This document shows, piece after piece, positions 1 through 9,475 of a DNA stretch of 64,000 bases (positions within the stretch are counted from its first letter, which is position 1; each line of letters begins with the position of its first letter). Source of the DNA: an uncultured delta proteobacterium (lineage in GTDB: Bacteria > Desulfobacterota > Desulfobacteria > Desulfobacterales > Desulfosalsimonadaceae). The stretch lies in assembly GCA_963826785.1 (NCBI GenBank), contig CAWGYD010000004.1, forward strand, positions 1 through 64,000, read 5' to 3'. The translations under genes were made by a program, and so were the position numbers. The notes beneath the pieces were generated by a model. The model did no database searches. It was not told the origin of the DNA and worked only from the letters and a program-made list of their open reading frames with translations.

Positions 1-978
1 TGGTGTAGGTGCTAGTCGAGTACGTGATTTATTTGCCAAAGCAAAAAAGAACTCACCTTCTATTATTTTCATAGATGAAATCGATGCCGTAGGTCGGGCC
101 GCGGCTCAGGGCATGGGTGGTGGCCATGACGAGCGCGAACAAACCCTTAACCAGATTCTTGTAGAAATGGACGGATTTGAACAGGGTACTAACGTCATAG
201 TTCTAGCAGCTACAAACCGTGCAGATGTGCTTGATCCGGCTTTGCTGAGGCCTGGGCGTTTTGACCGGCGGGTGAATATTGTTTTGCCGGACCGGCAAGA
301 TCGCAAAGCAATTTTGAAAGTGCATTTCAAAAAGAAACCAATCGATGATCATGTTGACCTAGATGCCCTAGCTGCCAAAACTGCCGGTAGCAGCGGTGCT
401 GACCTTGCCAATATCGCCAACGAAGCGGCGATAGTAGCGGCCAGACATAATCGCAAAGTAATTAGTCAATGCTGATGTTACGGCTGCTTTTGAAAAAGTA
501 GCAATAGGTCCAGAGCGCAAAAACAAAATTATGAGCGACAAAGAAAAGGAAATTACCGCTTATCATGAAGCCGGACATGCAATTGTCGGGCACGTTTTAC
601 CAGATAGCGATATGGTCCATAAAGTAACTATAATCCCGCGCGGCGGCACCGGCGGCGTCACTTGGTTTTTTCCACCAGAAGATAAAAGCTACATAGCAAA
701 GTTACGAATTTAAAGACGTTTTAGCCAGAACGATGGGGGGCAGGATTGCTGAAGAGATTATATACGGTAAAGACCGCGTAACAACTGGTGCCGGTAATGA
801 CTTGCAAAAGGCCGCTGAGATAGCACGAGACATGGTAATTAACCAAGGCATGGGCGATAAGCTACGCGATCAAGTATTTCATGAAGATAATGGCGGGATG
901 GTGTTTGACAAGATTACCCACGAACCCCATATAGCGATGATACGGCCAAAGAAATCGATGGTGAAGTCGAAGGTCTTA
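1..978 (+). pseudogene. ftsH: FtsH ATP-dependent zinc metalloprotease, 3' part; 5'-truncated by the window, several frameshifts, C-terminus missing
   Basis: Walker [29 protein letters not shown], second region of homology [20 protein letters not shown], Zn motif HEAGH and GAGNDLQKA, spread over ORFs 113-475, 531-713 and 733-987. Homology ends at ...AKEIDGEVEGL near 978. Confidence 0.92.
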
Positions 979-979
979 A

Positions 980-1820
980 TCTTGTAATAGTGTTCGTATT
1001 TCTTGTATTTCAAGATCGTTAGAATCTTCCGGCACTCGCCAGTACATCTTAACTCTAACGCTACCAGCGCCAGGGGATACAATCTTAATGTTCTCTAACG
1101 TAATGGCAAGCACACCAATGTGCCAAATCTTCATCATTCAATAACGGGCTTTTTATAAAATTTAGTTCTGGTATTCTGGTATATTCAGTATGTAATTCAT
1201 CCCCTAATCTGATTAAAGCTGCGAGTAACCTTAAACGACGATAATATCCAGCTGATTTAAAGCGCTCATATTGAGTTTCGCTTAATTTATCCCAAAAAAT
1301 TCGGCCACTATGCGAAAAAGCAACCAATGCGCTGTCATAAAGAAATGATAAGTGGTGATCAGGTAAACCAATATAGGGGCCACCCCGATTATCAGGCAAG
1401 CTCCTGTTAATTGTGTCCATGATCATTTCATGACCTAGTTGAACATGTTTTTTTCTAATTGATGTTGCGTGAATTCTTCCAAAGGTTTTGGGTATTTTTC
1501 GTATTGCATACCGATATCGTGTATAAGAGCTGATATTCCAAGCACAGTTGCTTCATATGATGAAAGATTGCTGTTGTCAGGTTTCAATTTTTCAAAATCT
1601 CTATGGCCTTAATTAAAACCTGTAAACTATGATTAATTCCATGATCAACAAACCGGTAAAGCTGAGGGCTTTTCCATATGGTATCTGCAAAGTCAAATAC
1701 ATTTCCCACAAGCGCATCTAATGAAGCTGAGTGAAACCGTTTGCCACGCAAACCAAGTAAATCAACAAATGAAGTAGAATCAATTGGATCAAAATTAAAC
1801 TCGTAATTCATCATTATCAC
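980..1820 (-). CDS. HD-domain phosphohydrolase of HD-CE type (frameshifted, 3'-truncated at ~980)
   Basis: Joining frames gives DHGINHS...ALIHDIGM (~1507-1521)...IRKKH...AFSHS...LIRLGDELH...AHW, the H..HD..H..H..D..HW pattern of HD-CE-like domains. Confidence 0.75.
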
Positions 1821-2763
1821 CCAGATATTTTGGTAATCGCTTATAATTTAGCCCTTCGCTAGGTTTACATAATGATAGTAATTTACTTTCATTTAAAAAT
1901 CGCGAAGCAGCGCACTCCAAGTCAAAAACACAGATTGATCGTTTTACCTCTGCGTTATTACTTAGGGCTAACAATGTCATTAAATCAATTTCGCGACCTG
2001 TAGCATTCACATCTTCAACAATACAAACTTGTTTTCTATTGAGTTGACGAAGTACATTAGCACTTAAAGACGAAAAATTTGGAAAAGGTCCTAACCGATC
2101 GATTATAATAAGCTTCTTGTCCTCGAATATTCTATTCAGAAACAATCCAAGGATGTATGCAGTGTTGCTCCCGACGATAAAAATATCTTCATCAACTTCT
2201 TTGTTGTATCCGTCGGTAAGAGAGTATCCCATATGATAGGCAATGAGTAGCGCGAGATTGCTATTTCTTAATATAGCTTTGACATCTATCCACTTATTTG
2301 CCCATGTGTCATCGTGTAATTTGATATACCTGCTTCCGTGTGGAGGTTGTCTTATATATTCTTGACTTAGATTCATTAAAAACTGAGCGAAATATTCTTG
2401 CCTAATCTCAACGATGGTCTTTTCTGATATATGACTTTGAAAAATATCCTTTATTTTTCTGCTGCCTTTTCCATAAAAATTTGATTCTATCACTTTGCCA
2501 GTTTCATCTTCTGTTACTAAAACTGAAATATTTTTGAGTAATTGTAGCTGTTCAAGCGCCATGCTGGATCTTACAACGACTATAAATGGAATTCGCTTAT
2601 TAAGCTCTAATAATGATGAAAAGCGTTTTTGAGCACCCAAACTTGGCAAAGGAGATAGGTCAACCATTACTTTTTTGTCTTTATTTCTATGCAACTTTCC
2701 TAATTAATTGTTGCAGTCTATCCATATCTCTTTCACCACCATATAAAGCGATAGATTTCTTAA
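1795..2763 (-). CDS. Type I phosphoribosyltransferase-domain protein, 3' part (5' part at 4302-4387; split by IS701)
   Basis: PRPP-binding loop VCIVEDVNATGREI and upstream YIKLHDDTWANKWIDVK hood-like segment. Removing the IS joins it to the ATG at 4387, with one further 1-nt indel near 2697. Confidence 0.75.
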
Positions 2764-4301
2764 CCCTACAACGCTACTTAGCTAAGATAAAACTTGATCA
2801 AAGTCCTTTTTTGGGGCATATTACATGATAAAACCCCTAAAAGAGGAGGTGCCCCATGCTGCCCGACATGCGACAATCGGATTATCTCTACCCAGTGCCA
2901 AAATTTGATCTCAATCAGGACGATGTGGATGGATTTACAAATGAATTAAAAGGCTTCCATGAACAATTCGATGACTGTTTTTTCAGGTCAGAGTCAAGAG
3001 ATAATTTTTTTCGGTACATGGCCGGCCAGTTCAGCCAAATAGAGCGAAAATCAATTGAGCCGATCGCCATTGCCATGGAAGGCGGGAAGGTTCGCGCAAT
3101 GCAACGCTTTGTCAGTGATGCGCCCTGGGATGATAAAAAATTGATATCTAAGTATCGTAAATTATTTATGGACGATTTGGGTCATCCGGACGGCGTAGTG
3201 ATTTTCGATGAATCCGGGTTCATCAAAAAAGGTGATGACAGCATTGGCGTCGGCAGGCAATATTGCGGAACCGTCGGCAAAGTCGACAATTGCCAAGTCG
3301 GCGTTTTTGCGGCCTATGCTTCACCATACGGCTATGGGTTGATAGACAAGCAATTATATATTCCACAGCACTGGTTTGACGATGATCACGAAGAGCGAAG
3401 AAATAAATGCAAGCTGCCGGAAAATGTTATATTCCAAACCAAGCCGCACCTGGCTGCCGGCATGCTCAAGCATCTCTATGATGAAAAGACCATTCCCTTT
3501 CGCTATGTGCTGGGCGATTCGGTATACGGGACAAGTCCGGAATTTATTGCTACGATCGAAAGCATGGTGGGAATGACCTATTTGGTGCAGGTCCCCGAAG
3601 ATACATTATGTTGGGCAAAGCGACCGATCACAATCACAAAAAGTTATTGTTACGGCGGCAAAAAGCAGACGAAGCGTATTCTGTCTGACACATCCGGCGA
3701 TCCAATTAAATTCAAAACATTGGCTTCCGGGATTCATAATTATTTTTGGTATCGGCGCAAAGTGTCGGAGGGAACCAAGGGGCCGATCGAATATGAATTT
3801 ATGAGACGTCGTGTGGTTTTGTCCAACAAAGGGCTTCCGGAAAAGGAAGTTTGGTTGTTGGTCAGAAGAACGATGGGCAAGAATCCGGAATACTCCTATT
3901 ATATTAGCAATGGTTCACAAAGCGTGAAAATGAGCACCTTGATCTGGCTGAGCGGTTTACGCTGGGCCATTGAGCAGTGCTTCGAAGAATGCAAAACAGA
4001 GTTGGGGATGGACCATTATGAAGTTCGTAAATTTCCTGGATGGCACCATCATATGCTCACATGCATGCTGGCCCATTTCTTTCTTTGGCACCTGAAAATC
4101 AGGTTGGGGAAAAAAAGCACCGTCGCTTACTCTATCGCAGCTTAAGATTTTATTGAACGTACTGCTGCCGTTTAGGATATTTGGCCTTGCTGAATCCATC
4201 GACCTGGTTGGCTGGATTCAGCGTAAAAATCATAAAGCCTATCTGTCCCACCGGAAACGGAAGCTGATGAGGCAGAATGATAGTTAAATATCGTTGTAGG
4301 G
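2764..4301 (+). mobile_element. IS701-family insertion sequence, 1538 bp
   Basis: Imperfect 21-bp terminal inverted repeats CCCTACAACGCTACTTAGCTA (2764-2784) and TAGTTAAATATCGTTGTAGGG (4281-4301), 18/21 match; flanking TTAA duplication at 2760-2763 and 4302-4305. Confidence 0.93.
2856..4287 (+). CDS. IS701-family DDE transposase (main ORF ends 4145; C-terminal tail in the +1 frame after a G4A7 run, to 4287)
   Basis: FDESGFIKKG..S.GV.RQYCGTVGKVDNCQ, GDSVYG, RWAIEQCFEECKTELGMDHYEVR; SD GAGGAGG upstream. Confidence 0.93.
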
Positions 4302-4387
4302 TTAAGTGAATTCGAAATTCCTTCTTGGATAAGCGTTTGCAAAATGTTCAGATAATGATCAACAATACCAATATTATCAGCGAGCAT
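4302..4387 (-). CDS. 5' fragment of the IS-disrupted PRTase gene (MLADNIGIVDHYLNILQTLIQEGISNSL)
   Basis: ATG at 4387 overlaps the stop of the upstream ATPase gene. The frame continues across the empty TTAA site as KKSIALYGGERDMDRLQQLIRK. Confidence 0.6.
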
Positions 4388-5328
4388 GGCCTTCCCCTAA
4401 TGCTTCGACATAAAATTGAACGCCAGGAAAAACCTTTGGCGGCCCTTCTTACGGTTTTTTTAATTATCAAGTTTTGAAAAGCGTCTTATGCTTAAAAAGG
4501 TATTGTTAAAGTTTAAAAACGACGACGCACCGCCTGATCTTACACGTACAACGCCATGAAGTCGGCTGGCAAATTGGACTGCTCTGAGAATCCGGCTCCC
4601 TCTCGATTATGATATCGAAACAATAGGGCTTTATTTATTGCAACTTAATCAAGCGGATATGGTAGCCATTATCGTTATAGGCTTCTTGTAAAACCAATAC
4701 CGTTGTCACCAATCGTGCAAGTTAAACGATTACATATCTCGCTTTTTGCTCTGATAATACAAAATAACCCCATCCTCTCCCTGCCCACCCCGACTATGCG
4801 AATTAGATTTCTATTGCTCAGCGATTAAATAAGATGGTTGTATAACAGTAAAATCCAGCTCATCAAGAATATCAGATTAAAAATCTGAAAATGTATTATG
4901 TAAATAAGATGACGAGAATTTATTGATTGATGAAATACCAACTTTCCAGAACCTCAATAAATACTAGATGCACGTGTTTCTTCGAGCATATATAATCATA
5001 AATTTCAAATATATTTGTAATAGATAAAGTTTCCGAGCATTCTAAGAAAGTAGGACCATTTTAAAAAATTTAGTTGCCATTTGTCGGATAGGAAGCTCTA
5101 AAAATCATTTTTCTTTTCACTTAAACAATCTCCGAGCAATAGAATCCATAGCATTCCATCTGAATCAATAAAATCCAAACCACGGAGGGAAAGAAATAGT
5201 TCAGGATCATCAGAGGAAAAAAATTTGGATAAATATGTGAATGATTGCGCAATAACATCTTCCCATTGCAATCTTTTTTTTCTATCCGATTGTTTTCTTA
5301 CAATCTGTGATAAACGTATTTGGATCAA
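4377..5328 (-). pseudogene. STAS-like N-terminus plus GHKL/HATPase_c ATPase (multiply frameshifted)
   Basis: N-terminal LSLRGLDFIDSDGMLWILLL; G1 box LTCTIGDNGIGF (~4690-4716); G2-like EGAGF; VRVRSGGA (~4530); terminal strand FPGVQFYVE (~4404-4430). The motifs lie in different frames. Confidence 0.65.
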
Positions 5329-5904
5329 GGAATTACTCTTTGGATGGTCAATATTAATTTACAGGAAATTGCTTTCTGAAAACGAGAATTGGCAGGATGA
5401 TACCAAAAATCGAAAAGATAATCAAAATTAATATAAGATTATATTTTCGATTTTCTTTGAAATTTAATTTCTAATTCGCAAGTTCGTCTTCGCTACCGAA
5501 TAGAGAATTTCAATATATCCTATATGTGCTATAATTGCTATACCTAATAAAATTGTGATTTTGAAAGTATAGAAAAGTTTTTGTTCGGAATTAATAAATC
5601 CAACAATTCAATAATTCTAAAAGTACTACACGTTTTTTGGCGTAATGAAACGATTGGAATTTGCCAGTCTTGCACGCCAAACAAATCCTCTCTCAAAGAG
5701 CATACAATAGCAGCCCTCCAGCATTCCTGAAAACCGGCAACCACAAGATATGGGGGAAGCCCAAAATCAAGAATTGCCGGTAAGGCTTATCGACTGTGCC
5801 GCACTGCTGGAAAAATTTGGAAATACATCATGTTTGAAATACTTATAACGATTTGCCCCTTTAATGAAACCAAACGTTGTTTTTGAATTTGTGTAACATT
5901 TCTT

Positions 5905-5932
5905 TTGACACTGTAACAATATGTGATACAAT
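5905..5932 (+). promoter_or_regulatory. Sigma70-type promoter of higBA with overlapping TGTAAC...GATACA operator; likely leaderless mRNA
   Basis: TTGACA-N16-TACAAT; the ATG lies 8 nt after the -10 box and there is no SD. Confidence 0.7.
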
Positions 5933-5939
5933 ATAATCT

Positions 5940-6215
5940 ATGATAAAAAGTTTCAGGCATAAGGGACTTGCCGAGTTATTTGAAGGTGGCCGATCTCGAA
6001 GGTTAAGTCAGGATTTACAAGAGCGGTCCCTAAGACGTTTAGATGCTCTTGATCAAGCGGAATCATTGACGGATTTAAATGTTCCTGGCTTTAATTTTCA
6101 CGGCCTTCAAGGAAAGCCAAAACGTTATAGTATTCATGTTAATGGTCCATGGTGCATTACCTTTGAATGGGAATCTGGTGATGCATTTAAGATTGACCTT
6201 GAACAATATCATTGA
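5940..6215 (+). CDS. higB: HigB/RelE-family toxin (plasmid maintenance killer type)
   Basis: MIKSFRHKGLAELF...FHGLQG...YSIHVNGPWCITFEW...LEQYH. Confidence 0.92.
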   Translation: MIKSFRHKGLAELFEGGRSRRLSQDLQERSLRRLDALDQAESLTDLNVPGFNFHGLQGKPKRYSIHVNGPWCITFEWESGDAFKIDLEQYH

Positions 6216-6225
6216 GGTAAAAACC

Positions 6226-6555
6226 ATGGGAGAATATGTAGTTAAACGCCCTATTAAAAGACAACCAGTACATCCTGGTGAAATTTTACGTGAAGATGTT
6301 CTTAAAACTCTTGGCCTGTCTGTCAGCGATGCAGCAAGGCGTCTTGGTGTTTCCCGCCAGCAACTTCATCGAATATTAGCTTGCACCCACCCCATTACAA
6401 CTGAAATGGCGCTCCGGATTGGCAAGTTTGCAGGAAATGGGCCTGGGCTTTGGTTACGTATGCAACAGGCTTATGATCTGTGGAACGCTGAAAACAAAAT
6501 GGCAGGTGAACTTTCCAAGATTAAGACGGTTGTATCCAATAATCTCCATTCCTGA
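6226..6555 (+). CDS. higA: HigA antitoxin (XRE HTH)
   Basis: HPGEILRED...AARRLGVSRQQL...ITTEMALRI...WLRMQQAYDLW; SD GAGG before ATG 6226. Confidence 0.92.
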   Translation: MGEYVVKRPIKRQPVHPGEILREDVLKTLGLSVSDAARRLGVSRQQLHRILACTHPITTEMALRIGKFAGNGPGLWLRMQQAYDLWNAENKMAGELSKIKTVVSNNLHS

Positions 6556-6964
6556 AAAGCGCAATGGAATTCTAAAACAGTAGGGCCAATATGAAATGAC
6601 GCCGAGCCGTATGCCGGGTGTTCAACAGTCTTCACCCCTATAACCCAACCTTCCAGTGCACCATACAATGGCTTTTTGGCACCTCAACCAGGAACTCTGC
6701 TACCACAAGATATGGTGCTTTTTATCTTTCTCGAATCGCATTTCACGCGCAAGATAAAGGGCTGAATCACGGAAACCTGCAGCGAGGGGGTGAGAGAGAT
6801 GGAATTTCAAAACCGCCCATCTCATCGATTTTGAAATACCACAGCATCAGCGACGCCGTGGGGGACTCGGTAGCCCGGAGAACATCTATGAGATGTTTGT
6901 TGGAGATAAGCAGCATCTATATCTATAGGATAATGCTTCAAGCGACGGCCACGGGTGATTCCAT

Positions 6965-7184: not shown

Positions 7185-7763
7185 TCATTTAGCGTTTAAT
7201 GCCGGCAACAGCGATTCCAAATGATCTAAAATACCGAATCTATCTGCGAAATGCGTTAATCGCGCCACGTCAATGGCATTAAAACGCTCATCGACAAAGC
7301 CGGCGGCGGTTGTCTTGAAGAGCGCTTCCAGATCAGCGGTATCGTGAATTTTTCGATCGGGATTGTTGGCAATGGCCATGAGTTTCAGCACGGCATAATC
7401 CGTAGGCTGCACCACTGGAATTTCACCGAAAAATTCATCTTTCAATGATATTGCCCGCTCAAGGATGGCAAGCCCATCTTCAGTTCGGGCAAACATGAAA
7501 TCGACTTTGCCATAAACGCCAAGTTCGGAATCAAACTGGGCAAAGGCATCTGTATTCTGAAAACAATCAAACCCCAACTCTGCCATTAAATCCCGTATCT
7601 TCTCCCGGTGCCGGGCTTCGGTAAGCAGGTCAATATCAGCTGTATAGCGGGGCATTCCATATAGCGCCAGCGCCAAGGCACCGATCAGGGCGTGGGCAAT
7701 TCCTCTTTCCGCCAGCTGTTTATGCAAAACTGACAGTATACTTTTAAGTTTTGGTGACGGCAT
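7185..7763 (-). CDS. Pol-beta superfamily nucleotidyltransferase (AbiEii-like/DUF6036-like)
   Basis: LIGALALALYGMPRYTADIDLL (G[G/A]...DxD), LKLMA...DR..HDTADL; SD GGAGG. Confidence 0.8.
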   Translation of the reverse strand: MPSPKLKSILSVLHKQLAERGIAHALIGALALALYGMPRYTADIDLLTEARHREKIRDLMAELGFDCFQNTDAFAQFDSELGVYGKVDFMFARTEDGLAILERAISLKDEFFGEIPVVQPTDYAVLKLMAIANNPDRKIHDTADLEALFKTTAAGFVDERFNAIDVARLTHFADRFGILDHLESLLPALNAK

Positions 7764-8001
7764 TACCCCTCCCGGCGAAATGCAAACTCATTGTCTTTTG
7801 CAGCAGGCAACGGCCCCCCTTAATACTGCCGTTTTGATCACAATCTGCGTAATATGCTTTACGAAGGCATCGCTTATTATATATATCCTAAATGATATCT
7901 GAGGCAACAGTAAGAATCAGCCATATCTTGTGTTGGTCCTCAAGGCGAGAAGAGGCGCAGGGTCACGCGGCAAATAAACGTAAACCACAAGGGTTCGTAA
8001 A

Positions 8002-8568
8002 ATGGCCAAATGTTTGATCTGTAATTCCAGAAAAGGAAAACGAAAATGTACCATCCAGGAGGGACTTATCTGCAGCCAGTGCTGCGGGGCGACCCGCGCT
8101 TCCGATAAATGCGCCGGCTGCTCCTATTTCCGGGATGAGAAATCCATGCGAAACTATCGCAATATCCCATACCACCCGCTTTCGGACATGTCGGCCGACT
8201 GGAATCTCCAGAATCAGGCAAATGTCATTGAATCGGCAATCTGCAGCTTTGACCAGGAATGTGGCAGCATAATGGATAACCAGACCGCGCTTGAAATTGT
8301 CCAACGACTCCTGGACAAGTACCACTTCCGGGATAAAAACCCGGCCATTTCGAATCCTCTGGTAAAACAGGGATTTTTTGCTGTAGATAAGGCGATTGAA
8401 GCGGATCTTTCATCTCTGATGCCGGAAGAAATCACTCGGCTGCTTGGCGCCATTGCCCGCTCGATAACCCGTCACGATGAAACCCGGCGGGCCTATATCG
8501 ATTTTATCCATGAGCATGTCGGTCTGCGTGTCGCCAGCGGGGTCCGCCTGATGCCAAGGAAGATTTAA
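8002..8568 (+). CDS. Hypothetical protein with N-terminal Cys-rich (putative Zn-binding) domain
   Basis: CLIC...KRKC...CSQCC...CAGC. Confidence 0.75.
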   Translation: MAKCLICNSRKGKRKCTIQEGLICSQCCGATRASDKCAGCSYFRDEKSMRNYRNIPYHPLSDMSADWNLQNQANVIESAICSFDQECGSIMDNQTALEIVQRLLDKYHFRDKNPAISNPLVKQGFFAVDKAIEADLSSLMPEEITRLLGAIARSITRHDETRRAYIDFIHEHVGLRVASGVRLMPRKI

Positions 8569-8615
8569 ATGATGGTCAGATCATCCGGGGTGTCCGGGTC
8601 GCAGCATCCGATTTA
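8559..8615 (+). repeat. ~56-bp direct repeat, copy 1
   Basis: GAAGATTTAAATGATGGTCAGATCATCCGGGGTGTCCGGGTCGCAGCATCCGATTTA; differs from 9664-9719 by 2 substitutions and 1 indel. Confidence 0.9.
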
Positions 8616-8734
8616 CTGATGCTTTGTTCCTTTTCTGTTTCTTGTATCTGGTTTCTTGTTTTACAGTGCCTTCAGCCAATTTTTCGAAACTCGGCGGACA
8701 TACACTACTTTCATCTTCTCGAACGCCGGTTTTT

Positions 8735-9161
8735 TCAATGTTTGGAATTTGCATTACCTGGTGATATTGTTTTGGCGATTACGGACTTCACTTCGGCAAC
8801 AAACTTTTCTGCAGAATCAAGGCTCATCCGGGCATCTTCATGAGAAACCTGAAATTGCGCCTCATAGTCACACCGCTGGCGTAAATCAAACGCCCTGTGA
8901 AGCCACCGCGAGAAGTCCTTTGAAAAAATGTCTGTCTTGACGAATTCCCGGTCAAATAAACTTATCGCACCGGCATGTTTTGAGGTTTCCTTTTTGTTAA
9001 TGGCAAGCAATGCCAAGACAGCGTAAAACATGGCATAATAAGAGTTATTGATCGAACGCCTGATTATATCCTGCTGAAACAACATGCGATGCCGCTTTGA
9101 TTGATTCTTCGGCTTGTTCGAGACGGTATTGAACCAAAGCTTTGACTTTTTCGGTTATCAT
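8735..9161 (-). CDS. HEPN-domain protein (1-nt frameshift near 9086)
   Basis: YRLEQAEESIKAA...INNSYYAMFYA...SKHAG...LRQRCDY; ATGA overlap with the MNT stop at 9158-9161. Confidence 0.85.
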
Positions 9162-9475
9162 GCCGGCACACCTTCGCGCAGGATATTTTCAACCAAGGTG
9201 CTTTCGGACATGGGACCGTCATCGAATTGGCGTTGATCTATGATCACGGTGGTGATCACCCTGTCGTTTTCGAATCCGATCTCCCAGCAGATATCCCGAA
9301 TAGCTGCCTCGGCCGATTCGTCTTTTTGCGGCAGGACAATGCAGACGTCGAAGTCGGATTCCCATGTTGCATCCCCGCGTGCACGTGATCCAAAAGCCCA
9401 GACTCGGGCGGTCGGATATAGATCCCGGATTCTTTTTGCCAAAATTTCGAGAATTTTTCTGTCATCCGCCAACAT
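9158..9475 (-). CDS. Minimal nucleotidyltransferase (MNT) antitoxin
   Basis: AFGSRARGDATWESDFDV...ENILREGV. Confidence 0.9.
   Translation of the reverse strand: MLADDRKILEILAKRIRDLYPTARVWAFGSRARGDATWESDFDVCIVLPQKDESAEAAIRDICWEIGFENDRVITTVIIDQRQFDDGPMSESTLVENILREGVPA

What the first reader, a model, noticed from the sequence alone, without database searches (positions are those of the whole stretch)
980..5328. Hidden three-gene STAS/GHKL ATPase - PRTase - HD-CE operon: candidate nucleotide-targeting defence system
Seen: the ORF track shows only fragments. After removing the IS and stepping across single-base indels, three overlapping (translationally coupled) minus-strand genes emerge. Gene 1 (5328-4377) has a STAS-like start (LDFIDSDG) and GHKL boxes (IGDNGIG, GAG, RSG, FPG). 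Gene 2 (4387-1795) has a PRPP-binding loop (IVEDVNATG). Gene 3 (1820-<980) has the full H..HD..H..H..D..HW HD-CE-type pattern. The island is much more AT-rich than the rest of the window and adjoins a TA cluster. Established: HD-CE and PRTase domains occur with GHKL ATPases in predicted conflict systems. Inference: this stand-alone STAS-HATPase + PRTase + HD trio may sense infection and then make or destroy a nucleotide. I do not recognise it as a named, tested system.
Basis: partly seen in the sequence, partly recalled or inferred. Interest (0 to 1): 0.8.

Follow-up and report, generated by a model that had tools for sequence, protein, structure and literature searches.

The report
Kinase-switched nucleotide-attacking defence operon candidate
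A broken three-gene cluster with intact relatives in other bacteria pairs a kinase related to a known DNA-damage sensor of phage defence with two nucleotide-handling proteins instead of the usual RNA-cutting toxin, which suggests an untested way to attack the cell's nucleotides during infection.

Summary
The operon is real. An intact relative (L001, 72-78% DNA identity) and seven metagenome loci keep the same three coupled genes in order (8 of 8). Gene 1 is a STAS domain fused to a SpoIIAB/RsbW-type kinase. It is homologous to VapK/CapK, the ssDNA-activated kinases of tested phage-defence modules (HHalign 96%). Gene 2 is a STAS-like domain fused to an orotate-PRTase-like domain with a partly degenerate PRPP motif. 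The layout mirrors vapKSC, with PRTase and HD-CE replacing the VapC RNase. Best model (0.5): ssDNA activates the kinase, which frees the HD-PRTase enzyme from gene 2 to attack nucleotides. Against it: VapS's conserved phospho-Ser/Thr is not conserved (Ala here), and binding could not be tested. This copy is dead: an IS701-like element splits gene 2, and gene 3 ends at a probably chimeric junction with foreign ftsH. Its 17 frameshifts are probably read errors. Ten paper searches and PADLOC show no description of the trio, but the paper defining HD-CE was unreadable. Verdict: new variant of a known kind.

The parts
4377..5328 (-). Gene 1: STAS (about residues 1-110) fused to a SpoIIAB/RsbW-type GHKL kinase (about 126-324); CapK/VapK-like. 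Broken here by 13 frameshifts and 2 in-frame stops.
   Evidence: SpoIIAB Z 12.8, rmsd 2.9, 134 aligned; RsbS Z 8.8, rmsd 2.7, 94 aligned; 96% to D. gobiensis VapK
1795..4387 (-). Gene 2: STAS-like N-terminal domain plus an OPRTase/APRTase-fold domain with a partly degenerate PRPP motif. Split near codon 29 by the IS; one further frameshift near 2689.
   Evidence: (PRTase Z 17.0; STAS Z 7.3, rmsd 3.9, 102 aligned)
2764..4301 (+). IS701-like insertion sequence (DDE_5 transposase 2856-4145, intact frame), terminal inverted repeats, 4-bp TTAA duplication at 2760-2763 and 4302-4305; opposite in direction to the operon.
   Evidence: a 95.7% copy on C6 with CTAA flanks
975..1820 (-). Gene 3, 5' half only (residues 1-280 of 569): HD-CE phosphohydrolase domain with all metal ligands; three frameshifts. 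Intact relatives continue into an OPRTase-like domain and a CxxC tail, which are absent from this assembly.
   Evidence: (HD-CE 76 bits, cut-off 27; Pribosyltran 27.5, cut-off 26.3)
1..974 (+). Frameshifted ftsH fragment joined tail to tail to gene 3 at the contig end; probably a foreign (chimeric) piece and not part of the system.
   Evidence: (55-67% identity to the FtsH copies of the relatives searched; host has two own copies on C6)

Best explanation
A vapKSC-like, kinase-switched toxin-antitoxin defence operon in which the effector is a nucleotide-attacking enzyme instead of an RNase. Step 1 (inferred from homology): gene 1, a STAS-GHKL kinase of the CapK/VapK kind, binds single-stranded DNA made by DNA damage or phage replication. 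Step 2 (inferred): it engages, and in most relatives phosphorylates, the STAS-like domain of gene 2. Step 3 (inferred): gene 2 is the antitoxin. Its degenerate PRTase domain pairs with the PRTase domain of gene 3, as type I PRTases dimerise, and keeps it off until the kinase acts. Step 4 (inferred): the freed gene 3 product, an HD-CE metal phosphohydrolase joined to a PRTase with an intact PRPP motif, degrades nucleotides or PRPP and stops phage replication or growth. Shown here: domain content, conserved catalytic residues, gene order and coupling, patchy distribution, homology of gene 1 to VapK. Not shown: any binding, phosphorylation, substrate or defence. The window's own copy is inactive.
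For: Order and coupling are kept in 8 of 8 loci; intergenic gaps run from -23 to +6. The gene 1 profile matches D. gobiensis VapK over STAS and kinase (96%, E 3.7e-9, 209 columns), and that operon is listed as vapKSC in Dataset EV3 of PMC13373217. Kinase E177, N181, H185, D216, G218 and G220 are invariant in 14 of 14 rows. An aromatic residue sits at the VapK F54 register in 8 of 14 rows and in the window. Four of the other six rows have Tyr at the register I read by eye as CapK W68. HD ligands H59, H63, H100, D101, H125, H170 and D207 are invariant in 48 of 48, and the gene 3 DD pair in 47 of 48. Gene 2's first acidic PRPP residue is kept in only 42 of 65. All 4 loci with about 4 kb or more of flank have mobile or candidate-defence neighbours: PDC-S65 plus a Type IIG-like methyltransferase, PDC-S45, an integrase plus HEPN, and phage-like lysis genes. 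No full-length orthologue was found in 400 class or 400 phylum genomes, yet relatives are named in four phyla.
Against: VapS and CapS have an absolutely conserved phospho-Ser/Thr. At that register gene 2 has Ala in the window and L001, Thr in 4 of 8 trio loci, and Ser/Thr in 11 of 50 scorable family members. The STAS call for gene 2 rests on fold only (Z 7.0-7.3, below the tool's caution line of 8); there is no sequence match to D. gobiensis VapS. Only 2 of 4 long loci have a strong PADLOC neighbour, and 3 of 7 metagenome loci have under 1 kb of flank. A three-gene STAS-like unit tested by DefensePredictor was scored non-defensive (row VPUS; I did not check that it is vapKSC). VapKSC itself gave about 2 logs of protection against at least one named phage. 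Synteny was seen only for the near clade of gene 2.
Confidence: 0.5

Rival explanations
1. The PRTase activity is the poison and the HD domain is the antidote or off-switch. The kinase switches on a gene 2/gene 3 PRTase heterodimer that drains PRPP or makes an abnormal nucleotide, which HD-CE removes in uninfected cells.
For: PRTases are described as effectors or toxins in retron III, ShosTA and PsyrTA, and are essential in Ophion (passages of 10.1101/2025.09.30.679545). Gene 3's PRTase keeps H383, H391, R399, GTS and DD almost invariantly. Gene 2 keeps the D-R/K-L-G-P loop and TGxE, more than a pure scaffold would need.
Against: Maker and breaker would sit in one chain. Pfam assigns the HD domain to HD-CE, a family defined as a conflict effector (meaning recalled; paper not readable). 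Neither PRTase meets Pfam PRTase-CE (1 of 65 at E 0.077; none for gene 3).
Confidence: 0.2
2. A non-defensive partner-switch that controls a nucleotide second messenger or a general stress response, like SiaABCD in Pseudomonas.
For: The gene 1 kinase also resembles SiaB (Z 9.2, rmsd 4.3, 149 aligned). Kinase-STAS switches control biofilm signalling without a sigma factor (abstract of PMC7647112). PurR, a PRPP-sensing regulator, is among gene 2's fold hits (Z 15.8). The CapK paper itself says the line between defence and stress response is fuzzy.
Against: No PP2C phosphatase to reset the switch was seen among the neighbours scanned. The distribution is rare and scattered, the GC is low against the host in L001 and the window, and neighbours are mobile or defence genes.
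Confidence: 0.15
3. Same defence output but no phosphorylation of gene 2. The kinase acts by nucleotide-dependent binding and sequestration of the STAS-like domain, or phosphorylates another residue, for example on gene 3.
For: No conserved acceptor at the VapS S48 register; Ala in this lineage, Asp or Glu in 5 of 17 close members. Kinase ATP-binding residues are still invariant.
Against: Thr is at the register in 4 of 8 trio loci and one residue away in 2 more. S72 lies three residues upstream in the window's lineage.
Confidence: 0.1
4. Housekeeping pyrimidine salvage or synthesis, as the database label 'orotate phosphoribosyltransferase' on some gene 3 relatives suggests.
For: OPRTase-like fold and hood motif; JGI names.
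Against: Scores are far below NCBIfam pyrE cut-offs (22 and 17 bits against 106.8). No full-length orthologue was found in 400 class genomes. The genes are fused to HD-CE and STAS and coupled to a kinase.
Confidence: 0.03

Closest known systems
VapKSC (Chambers et al., EMBO J 2026, PMC13373217)
   Same: Three-gene operon: STAS-GHKL kinase, then a STAS protein, then a putative toxin. Gene 1 is homologous to a listed VapK over both domains and keeps the N-box Asn, the aromatic residue at the ssDNA-stacking register and (in most rows) a basic hairpin before the G1 box.
   Different: No PIN/VapC nuclease. The STAS-like domain is fused to a PRTase domain, the effector is an HD-CE-PRTase-CxxC fusion, and the phospho-acceptor is not conserved. 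The word phosphoribosyltransferase was not found in the main text or in 12 of 14 supplement files.
CapK + CapS (same paper)
   Same: Same kinase type and kinase-STAS logic; ssDNA activation shown for CapK.
   Different: CapK has an N-terminal HTH and CapS a winged helix that represses transcription. Neither is present here.
HD-CE and PRTase-CE conflict effectors (Nicastro et al. 2023, NAR 51:11479; seen only as a reference-list entry, content recalled)
   Same: Gene 3 meets Pfam HD-CE (PF24391) with all metal ligands.
   Different: The PRTases here are OPRTase/APRTase-like and do not meet PF24390. Whether that paper or its supplements already list this architecture could not be checked.
Clover (CloA/CloB, PMC12265719)
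   Same: An HD nucleotide hydrolase is the defence effector and is held in check by a partner in the operon.
   Different: CloA is a dGTPase restrained by a nucleotide (p3diT) made by an NTase. There is no kinase, STAS or PRTase.
SpoIIAB/SpoIIAA, RsbW/RsbV and SiaB/SiaC partner switches
   Same: Folds of the kinase and STAS domains.
   Different: No sigma factor, cyclase or resetting phosphatase was seen in the loci; gene 1's own STAS lacks a conserved acceptor Ser (2 of 14).

Membership tests
CapK/VapK kinases | STAS domain fused to a SpoIIAB-type GHKL kinase | tested here: met
   Model of the L001 protein: STAS 1-109 (RsbS Z 8.8), kinase 126-324 (SpoIIAB Z 12.8)
CapK/VapK kinases | Homology to a listed member over both domains | tested here: met
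   HHalign 96%, E 3.7e-9, 209 columns to D. gobiensis VapK
CapK/VapK kinases | Catalytic N-box Asn and DxGxG box | tested here: met
   Invariant in 14 of 14 rows; present in the window across frameshifts
CapK/VapK kinases | Aromatic ssDNA-stacking residue (VapK F54, CapK W68) | tested here: met
   Y/F/W at the F54 register in 8 of 14 rows and Phe in the window; Tyr at the W68 register in 4 further rows. Registers set and by eye from sequences printed; counts
CapK/VapK kinases | Kinase activity switched on by ssDNA | not testable with these tools
   Needs purified protein
VapKSC system | Second gene is a STAS protein | tested here: inconclusive
   Fold match of residues 5-144 to STAS domains at Z 7.0-7.3; no sequence match to D. 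gobiensis VapS
VapKSC system | Absolutely conserved phospho-Ser/Thr in the STAS partner | tested here: not met
   Ala in window and L001; Thr in 4 of 8 trio loci; Ser/Thr in 11 of 50 scorable members
VapKSC system | VapC-like PIN nuclease as third gene | tested here: not met
   Third gene is HD-CE plus PRTase in 8 of 8 loci
VapKSC system | Antitoxin binds and neutralises the toxin; anti-phage activity | not testable with these tools
   No complex prediction was obtained; needs experiments
CapKS regulators | Winged-helix DNA-binding domain on the STAS partner | tested here: not met
   Gene 2's C-terminal domain has the type I PRTase fold (Z 17.0)
HD-CE (PF24391) | Pfam gathering score | tested here: met
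   76 bits against 27 for L001; two window fragments 29.3 and 32.9
HD-CE (PF24391) | Metal-binding His/Asp set | tested here: met
   Seven positions invariant in 48 of 48
PRTase-CE (PF24390) | Pfam gathering score | tested here: not met
   1 of 65 gene 2 members at E 0.077; no hit for gene 3
Orotate PRTase (PyrE) | Type I PRTase fold with hood hairpin and acidic PRPP pair | tested here: met
   Gene 3: 4paw E 7e-8, DD in 47 of 48. Gene 2: fold met, first acidic residue in 42 of 65
Orotate PRTase (PyrE) | NCBIfam equivalog cut-off | tested here: not met
   16.6 and 22.1 bits against 106.8
Systems in PADLOC-DB 2.0.0 | Model match for the three proteins | tested here: not met
   No hit for the three L001 proteins. 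L003 gene 3 has only partial weak hits (RT_UG24 4e-6, PRTase_III-A 8.5e-4); L004 genes 1 and 2 have none

The most novel reading that the evidence does not exclude
A third output of the CapK/VapK ssDNA sensor in which switching runs through a PRTase heterodimer. A pseudo-PRTase antitoxin completes or blocks the active site of the effector's PRTase, and that site makes or senses an unusual phosphoribosylated nucleotide (possibly from a phage-modified or damaged base) that gates the attached HD-CE hydrolase. The system would then need two inputs, ssDNA and a nucleotide, before it destroys the nucleotide pool.
Probability: 0.15. Interest if true: 0.85.

Novelty: new variant of a known kind. Interest (0 to 1): 0.62.

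Why it matters
CapK/VapK kinases were described in 2026 with two outputs, a repressor and an RNase. This family would add a third: direct control of a nucleotide-targeting enzyme. It would also give a testable setting for HD-CE, a family I recall as defined by computation and for which my searches listed no experimental paper. Two OPRTase-like domains, one intact and one degenerate, point to a pseudo-enzyme used as antitoxin. Intact operons of about 3.7 kb are in hand (L001-L006), so the model can be tested with ordinary cloning.

Tried and rejected
Sequencing runs: none was listed for window 600-5700, so read error against real decay could not be settled on reads; no RNA holder listed. The HD-CE/PRTase-CE paper (Nicastro 2023) is not held in the library. 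Viral contigs: no relative with A3, A2 or A4. Phage records: none for gene 2. Plasmids: none for the distant gene 2 member P0031. Gene 2 against gene 1 or against D. gobiensis VapS: no profile match. Gene 2 against gene 3 PRTase: weak (53%, E 1.3e-4). The 11 other class-level matches (at most 30 bits against 301) were set aside on score and coverage without opening each locus. An HSP90-like chaperone reading of gene 1 was rejected: HSP90 hits have TM 0.14-0.19 against about 0.30 for SpoIIAB. An upstream palindrome (5406-5454) is absent from L001 and L002, so it is not a conserved operator. Simple pseudogene decay as the source of the frameshifts is disfavoured but not excluded. Paper searches listed no paper describing this trio. 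bioRxiv supplements are closed, and 2 of 14 supplement files of PMC13373217 were not searched.
Full report
Observation. The window is the first 64 kb of contig C4 of an 11-contig assembly. A search with the longest intact piece of gene 2 found one genome locus, L001, in a Desulfarculaceae MAG. It has 78% DNA identity to window 974-2755 and 72% to 4302-5327. L001 holds three open, overlapping frames of 327, 351 and 569 residues. The IS is 2764-4301 with a TTAA duplication, and a 95.7% copy lies on C6. The trio is 35.6% GC against 57.8% for 10-64 kb.

State of this copy. Gene 1 has 13 frameshifts and 2 stops, gene 2 has one frameshift and the IS, and gene 3 has three frameshifts and stops at residue 280 of 569 (exact placement depends on the aligner). 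The missing half is not elsewhere in the assembly. Beyond 974 lies an ftsH fragment with at least three frameshifts. It is 55-67% identical to the FtsH copies found in 19 of the 20 relatives searched, and the host has two own copies. I read it as a chimeric contig end (inference). The damage is rich in indels and poor in substitutions: second-position divergence from L001 is 0.097, 0.100 and 0.061, and conserved sites changed are 3 of 44, 2 of 42 and 0 of 87. Detectable frameshifts rise from 0.6 to 2.8 per 10 kb towards contig ends (an insensitive method, not directly comparable). This favours long-read error (about 70%, my estimate). The clean transposase and 900 clean bases in gene 2 show the damage is uneven, and no reads were available. 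The IS insertion is biological either way, so this copy is inactive.

Domains. Gene 1 (model pLDDT 83) is a STAS domain (RsbS Z 8.8) followed by a kinase whose best match is SpoIIAB (Z 12.8, rmsd 2.9, 134 aligned), then two RsbW-type anti-sigma kinases. The N-box E-x3-N-x3-H, DxGxG and GxG are invariant in 14 of 14 rows. Gene 2 (pLDDT 92.5) has a type I PRTase fold at about 152-343 (OPRTase/APRTase, Z 17). Among the 50 rows shown, two STAS domains match its residues 5-144 at Z 7.0-7.3; that is weak. Its first acidic PRPP residue is kept in 42 of 65, while T286, G287, E289 and D291 are kept in 60 or more of 65. Gene 3 meets Pfam HD-CE and Pribosyltran. Among 48 aligned sequences (the reference and 47 of the 49 hits; a fragment of the query and a 342-residue partial hit were left out), seven HD ligands are invariant and the DD pair and CxxC are kept in 47.

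Distribution and context. Gene 2 has 79 clusters at 50% identity, gene 3 has 49 hits and gene 1 has 9. All 7 metagenome loci found with gene 2, and L001, carry the three genes in order; two are cut by contig ends. The pattern used reaches only the near clade. No full-length orthologue appeared in 400 class or 400 phylum genomes. Named relatives are Desulfarculaceae, Anaerolineales, Gemmatimonadaceae and Coriobacteriia. The four loci with long flanks hold a Type IIG-like methyltransferase and PDC-S65 (L001), PDC-S45 and a phage-type clamp gene (L002), an integrase and a HEPN protein (L005), and an endolysin-like gene (L006). The window has HigBA, an AbiEii-like NTase and an MNT-HEPN pair. This is the pattern of mobile defence cargo, though only two of the four have a strong PADLOC neighbour.

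Closest known system. A distant gene 1 relative led to plasmid operons of ATP-binding protein, DUF4325 STAS and PIN. An earlier scan note pointed to Chambers et al. 2026. I read its abstract, sections 11, 12 and 14, passages of section 13 and appendix file 6, and searched 12 of 14 supplement files. It shows that CapK is activated by ssDNA and phosphorylates CapS. It also shows that VapS neutralises the VapC toxin and that vapKSC gives about 2 logs of protection against one named phage; VapK activity itself was not tested in vitro. The D. gobiensis operon I had fetched is in their vapKSC list, and gene 1 matches its kinase at 96% over 209 columns. The paper's VapK numbering runs five ahead of its printed sequence (my hand count), which puts F54 just before the STAS loop. 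Gene 1 has Tyr, Phe or Trp there in 8 of 14 rows and Phe in the window. Four of the remaining rows have Tyr at the position I read as CapK W68. These are two clades, so this is not independent covariation.

Mechanism. By analogy, ssDNA activates gene 1, which acts on the STAS-like domain of gene 2 and frees gene 3, whose HD-CE and PRTase domains attack nucleotides or PRPP. That type I PRTases dimerise is established knowledge; that the two PRTase domains here pair with each other is inference, and no complex prediction was obtained. The main weakness is the acceptor. VapS and CapS have an invariant Ser/Thr, while gene 2 has Thr in 4 of 8 trio loci, Thr one residue on in 2, and Ala in L001 and the window. 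The system therefore works like vapKSC but is not a member. Rivals are a PRTase toxin with an HD antidote (0.2), a non-defensive second-messenger switch (0.15), switching without phosphorylation of gene 2 (0.1) and salvage (0.03).

Literature. Ten searches listed no paper on this trio. What I saw of other papers: Clover PMC12265719, passages; retron survey PMC13712802, passages; DefensePredictor PMC13092281, passages and supplement rows; modularity-network preprint 10.1101/2025.09.30.679545, abstract and passages; SiaABC PMC7647112, abstract; PIN classification PMC5499597, one table row noting PIN.4 coupled to DUF4325; PMC7924643, one table row; PMC12839542, one reference entry. Nicastro 2023, which I recall as defining HD-CE, was not readable; it or its supplements may already list this architecture as a prediction. 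DefensePredictor scored one three-gene STAS-like unit as non-defensive, a caution on how easily such modules show activity.

Verdict. This is a rare but conserved operon that joins a VapK-like sensor kinase to a double-PRTase, HD-CE output: a new variant of a known kind, interest 0.62.

Noticed in passing
window 1-974: Frameshifted ftsH fragment only 55-67% identical to FtsH of the host's relatives, fused to gene 3 over a few shared bases: probably foreign DNA at a chimeric contig end. Its source was not identified.
   Followed up: partly
window 5701-6672 and G000 C6:374194-375165: A 972-base module with HigBA occurs twice in the genome (99.5%, no gaps). It is bounded by imperfect repeats that recur on C3 and C8: a small mobile cassette or repeat-bounded TA unit.
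   Followed up: no
window 5406-5454: 18-base inverted repeat (94% complementary, 13-base spacer) upstream of gene 1; not found upstream of the L001 or L002 operons.
   Followed up: partly
G000 C6:706560-708108: Second IS701-like copy with CTAA flanks whose transposase frame is broken by many indels, unlike the window copy.
   Followed up: partly
window 7185-9475: AbiEii-like nucleotidyltransferase, a cysteine-rich 188-residue ORF with no Pfam match, and an MNT-HEPN pair (PDC-S09) extend the TA cluster.
   Followed up: no
L022:1303-3414 (G444): A 703-residue HD-CE protein fused to an IF-2B-family domain: another HD-CE joined to a sugar-phosphate-binding fold, parallel to the HD-CE-PRTase fusion.
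   Followed up: no
L001:501-6047: SIR2-like PDC-S65 gene, a 237-residue ORF with no family match and a 1016-residue N6 methyltransferase lie divergently next to the intact operon.
   Followed up: no
L006:9017-11769: Three unannotated ORFs between the trio and an amidase-SLH gene in a prophage-like stretch; no clear PADLOC or PHROG name.
   Followed up: partly
gene 3 family (A3), residues 383-399 and 555-558: Near-invariant H383, H391, C398 and the terminal CxxC could form a zinc site tying the tail to the PRTase hood (inference).
   Followed up: no
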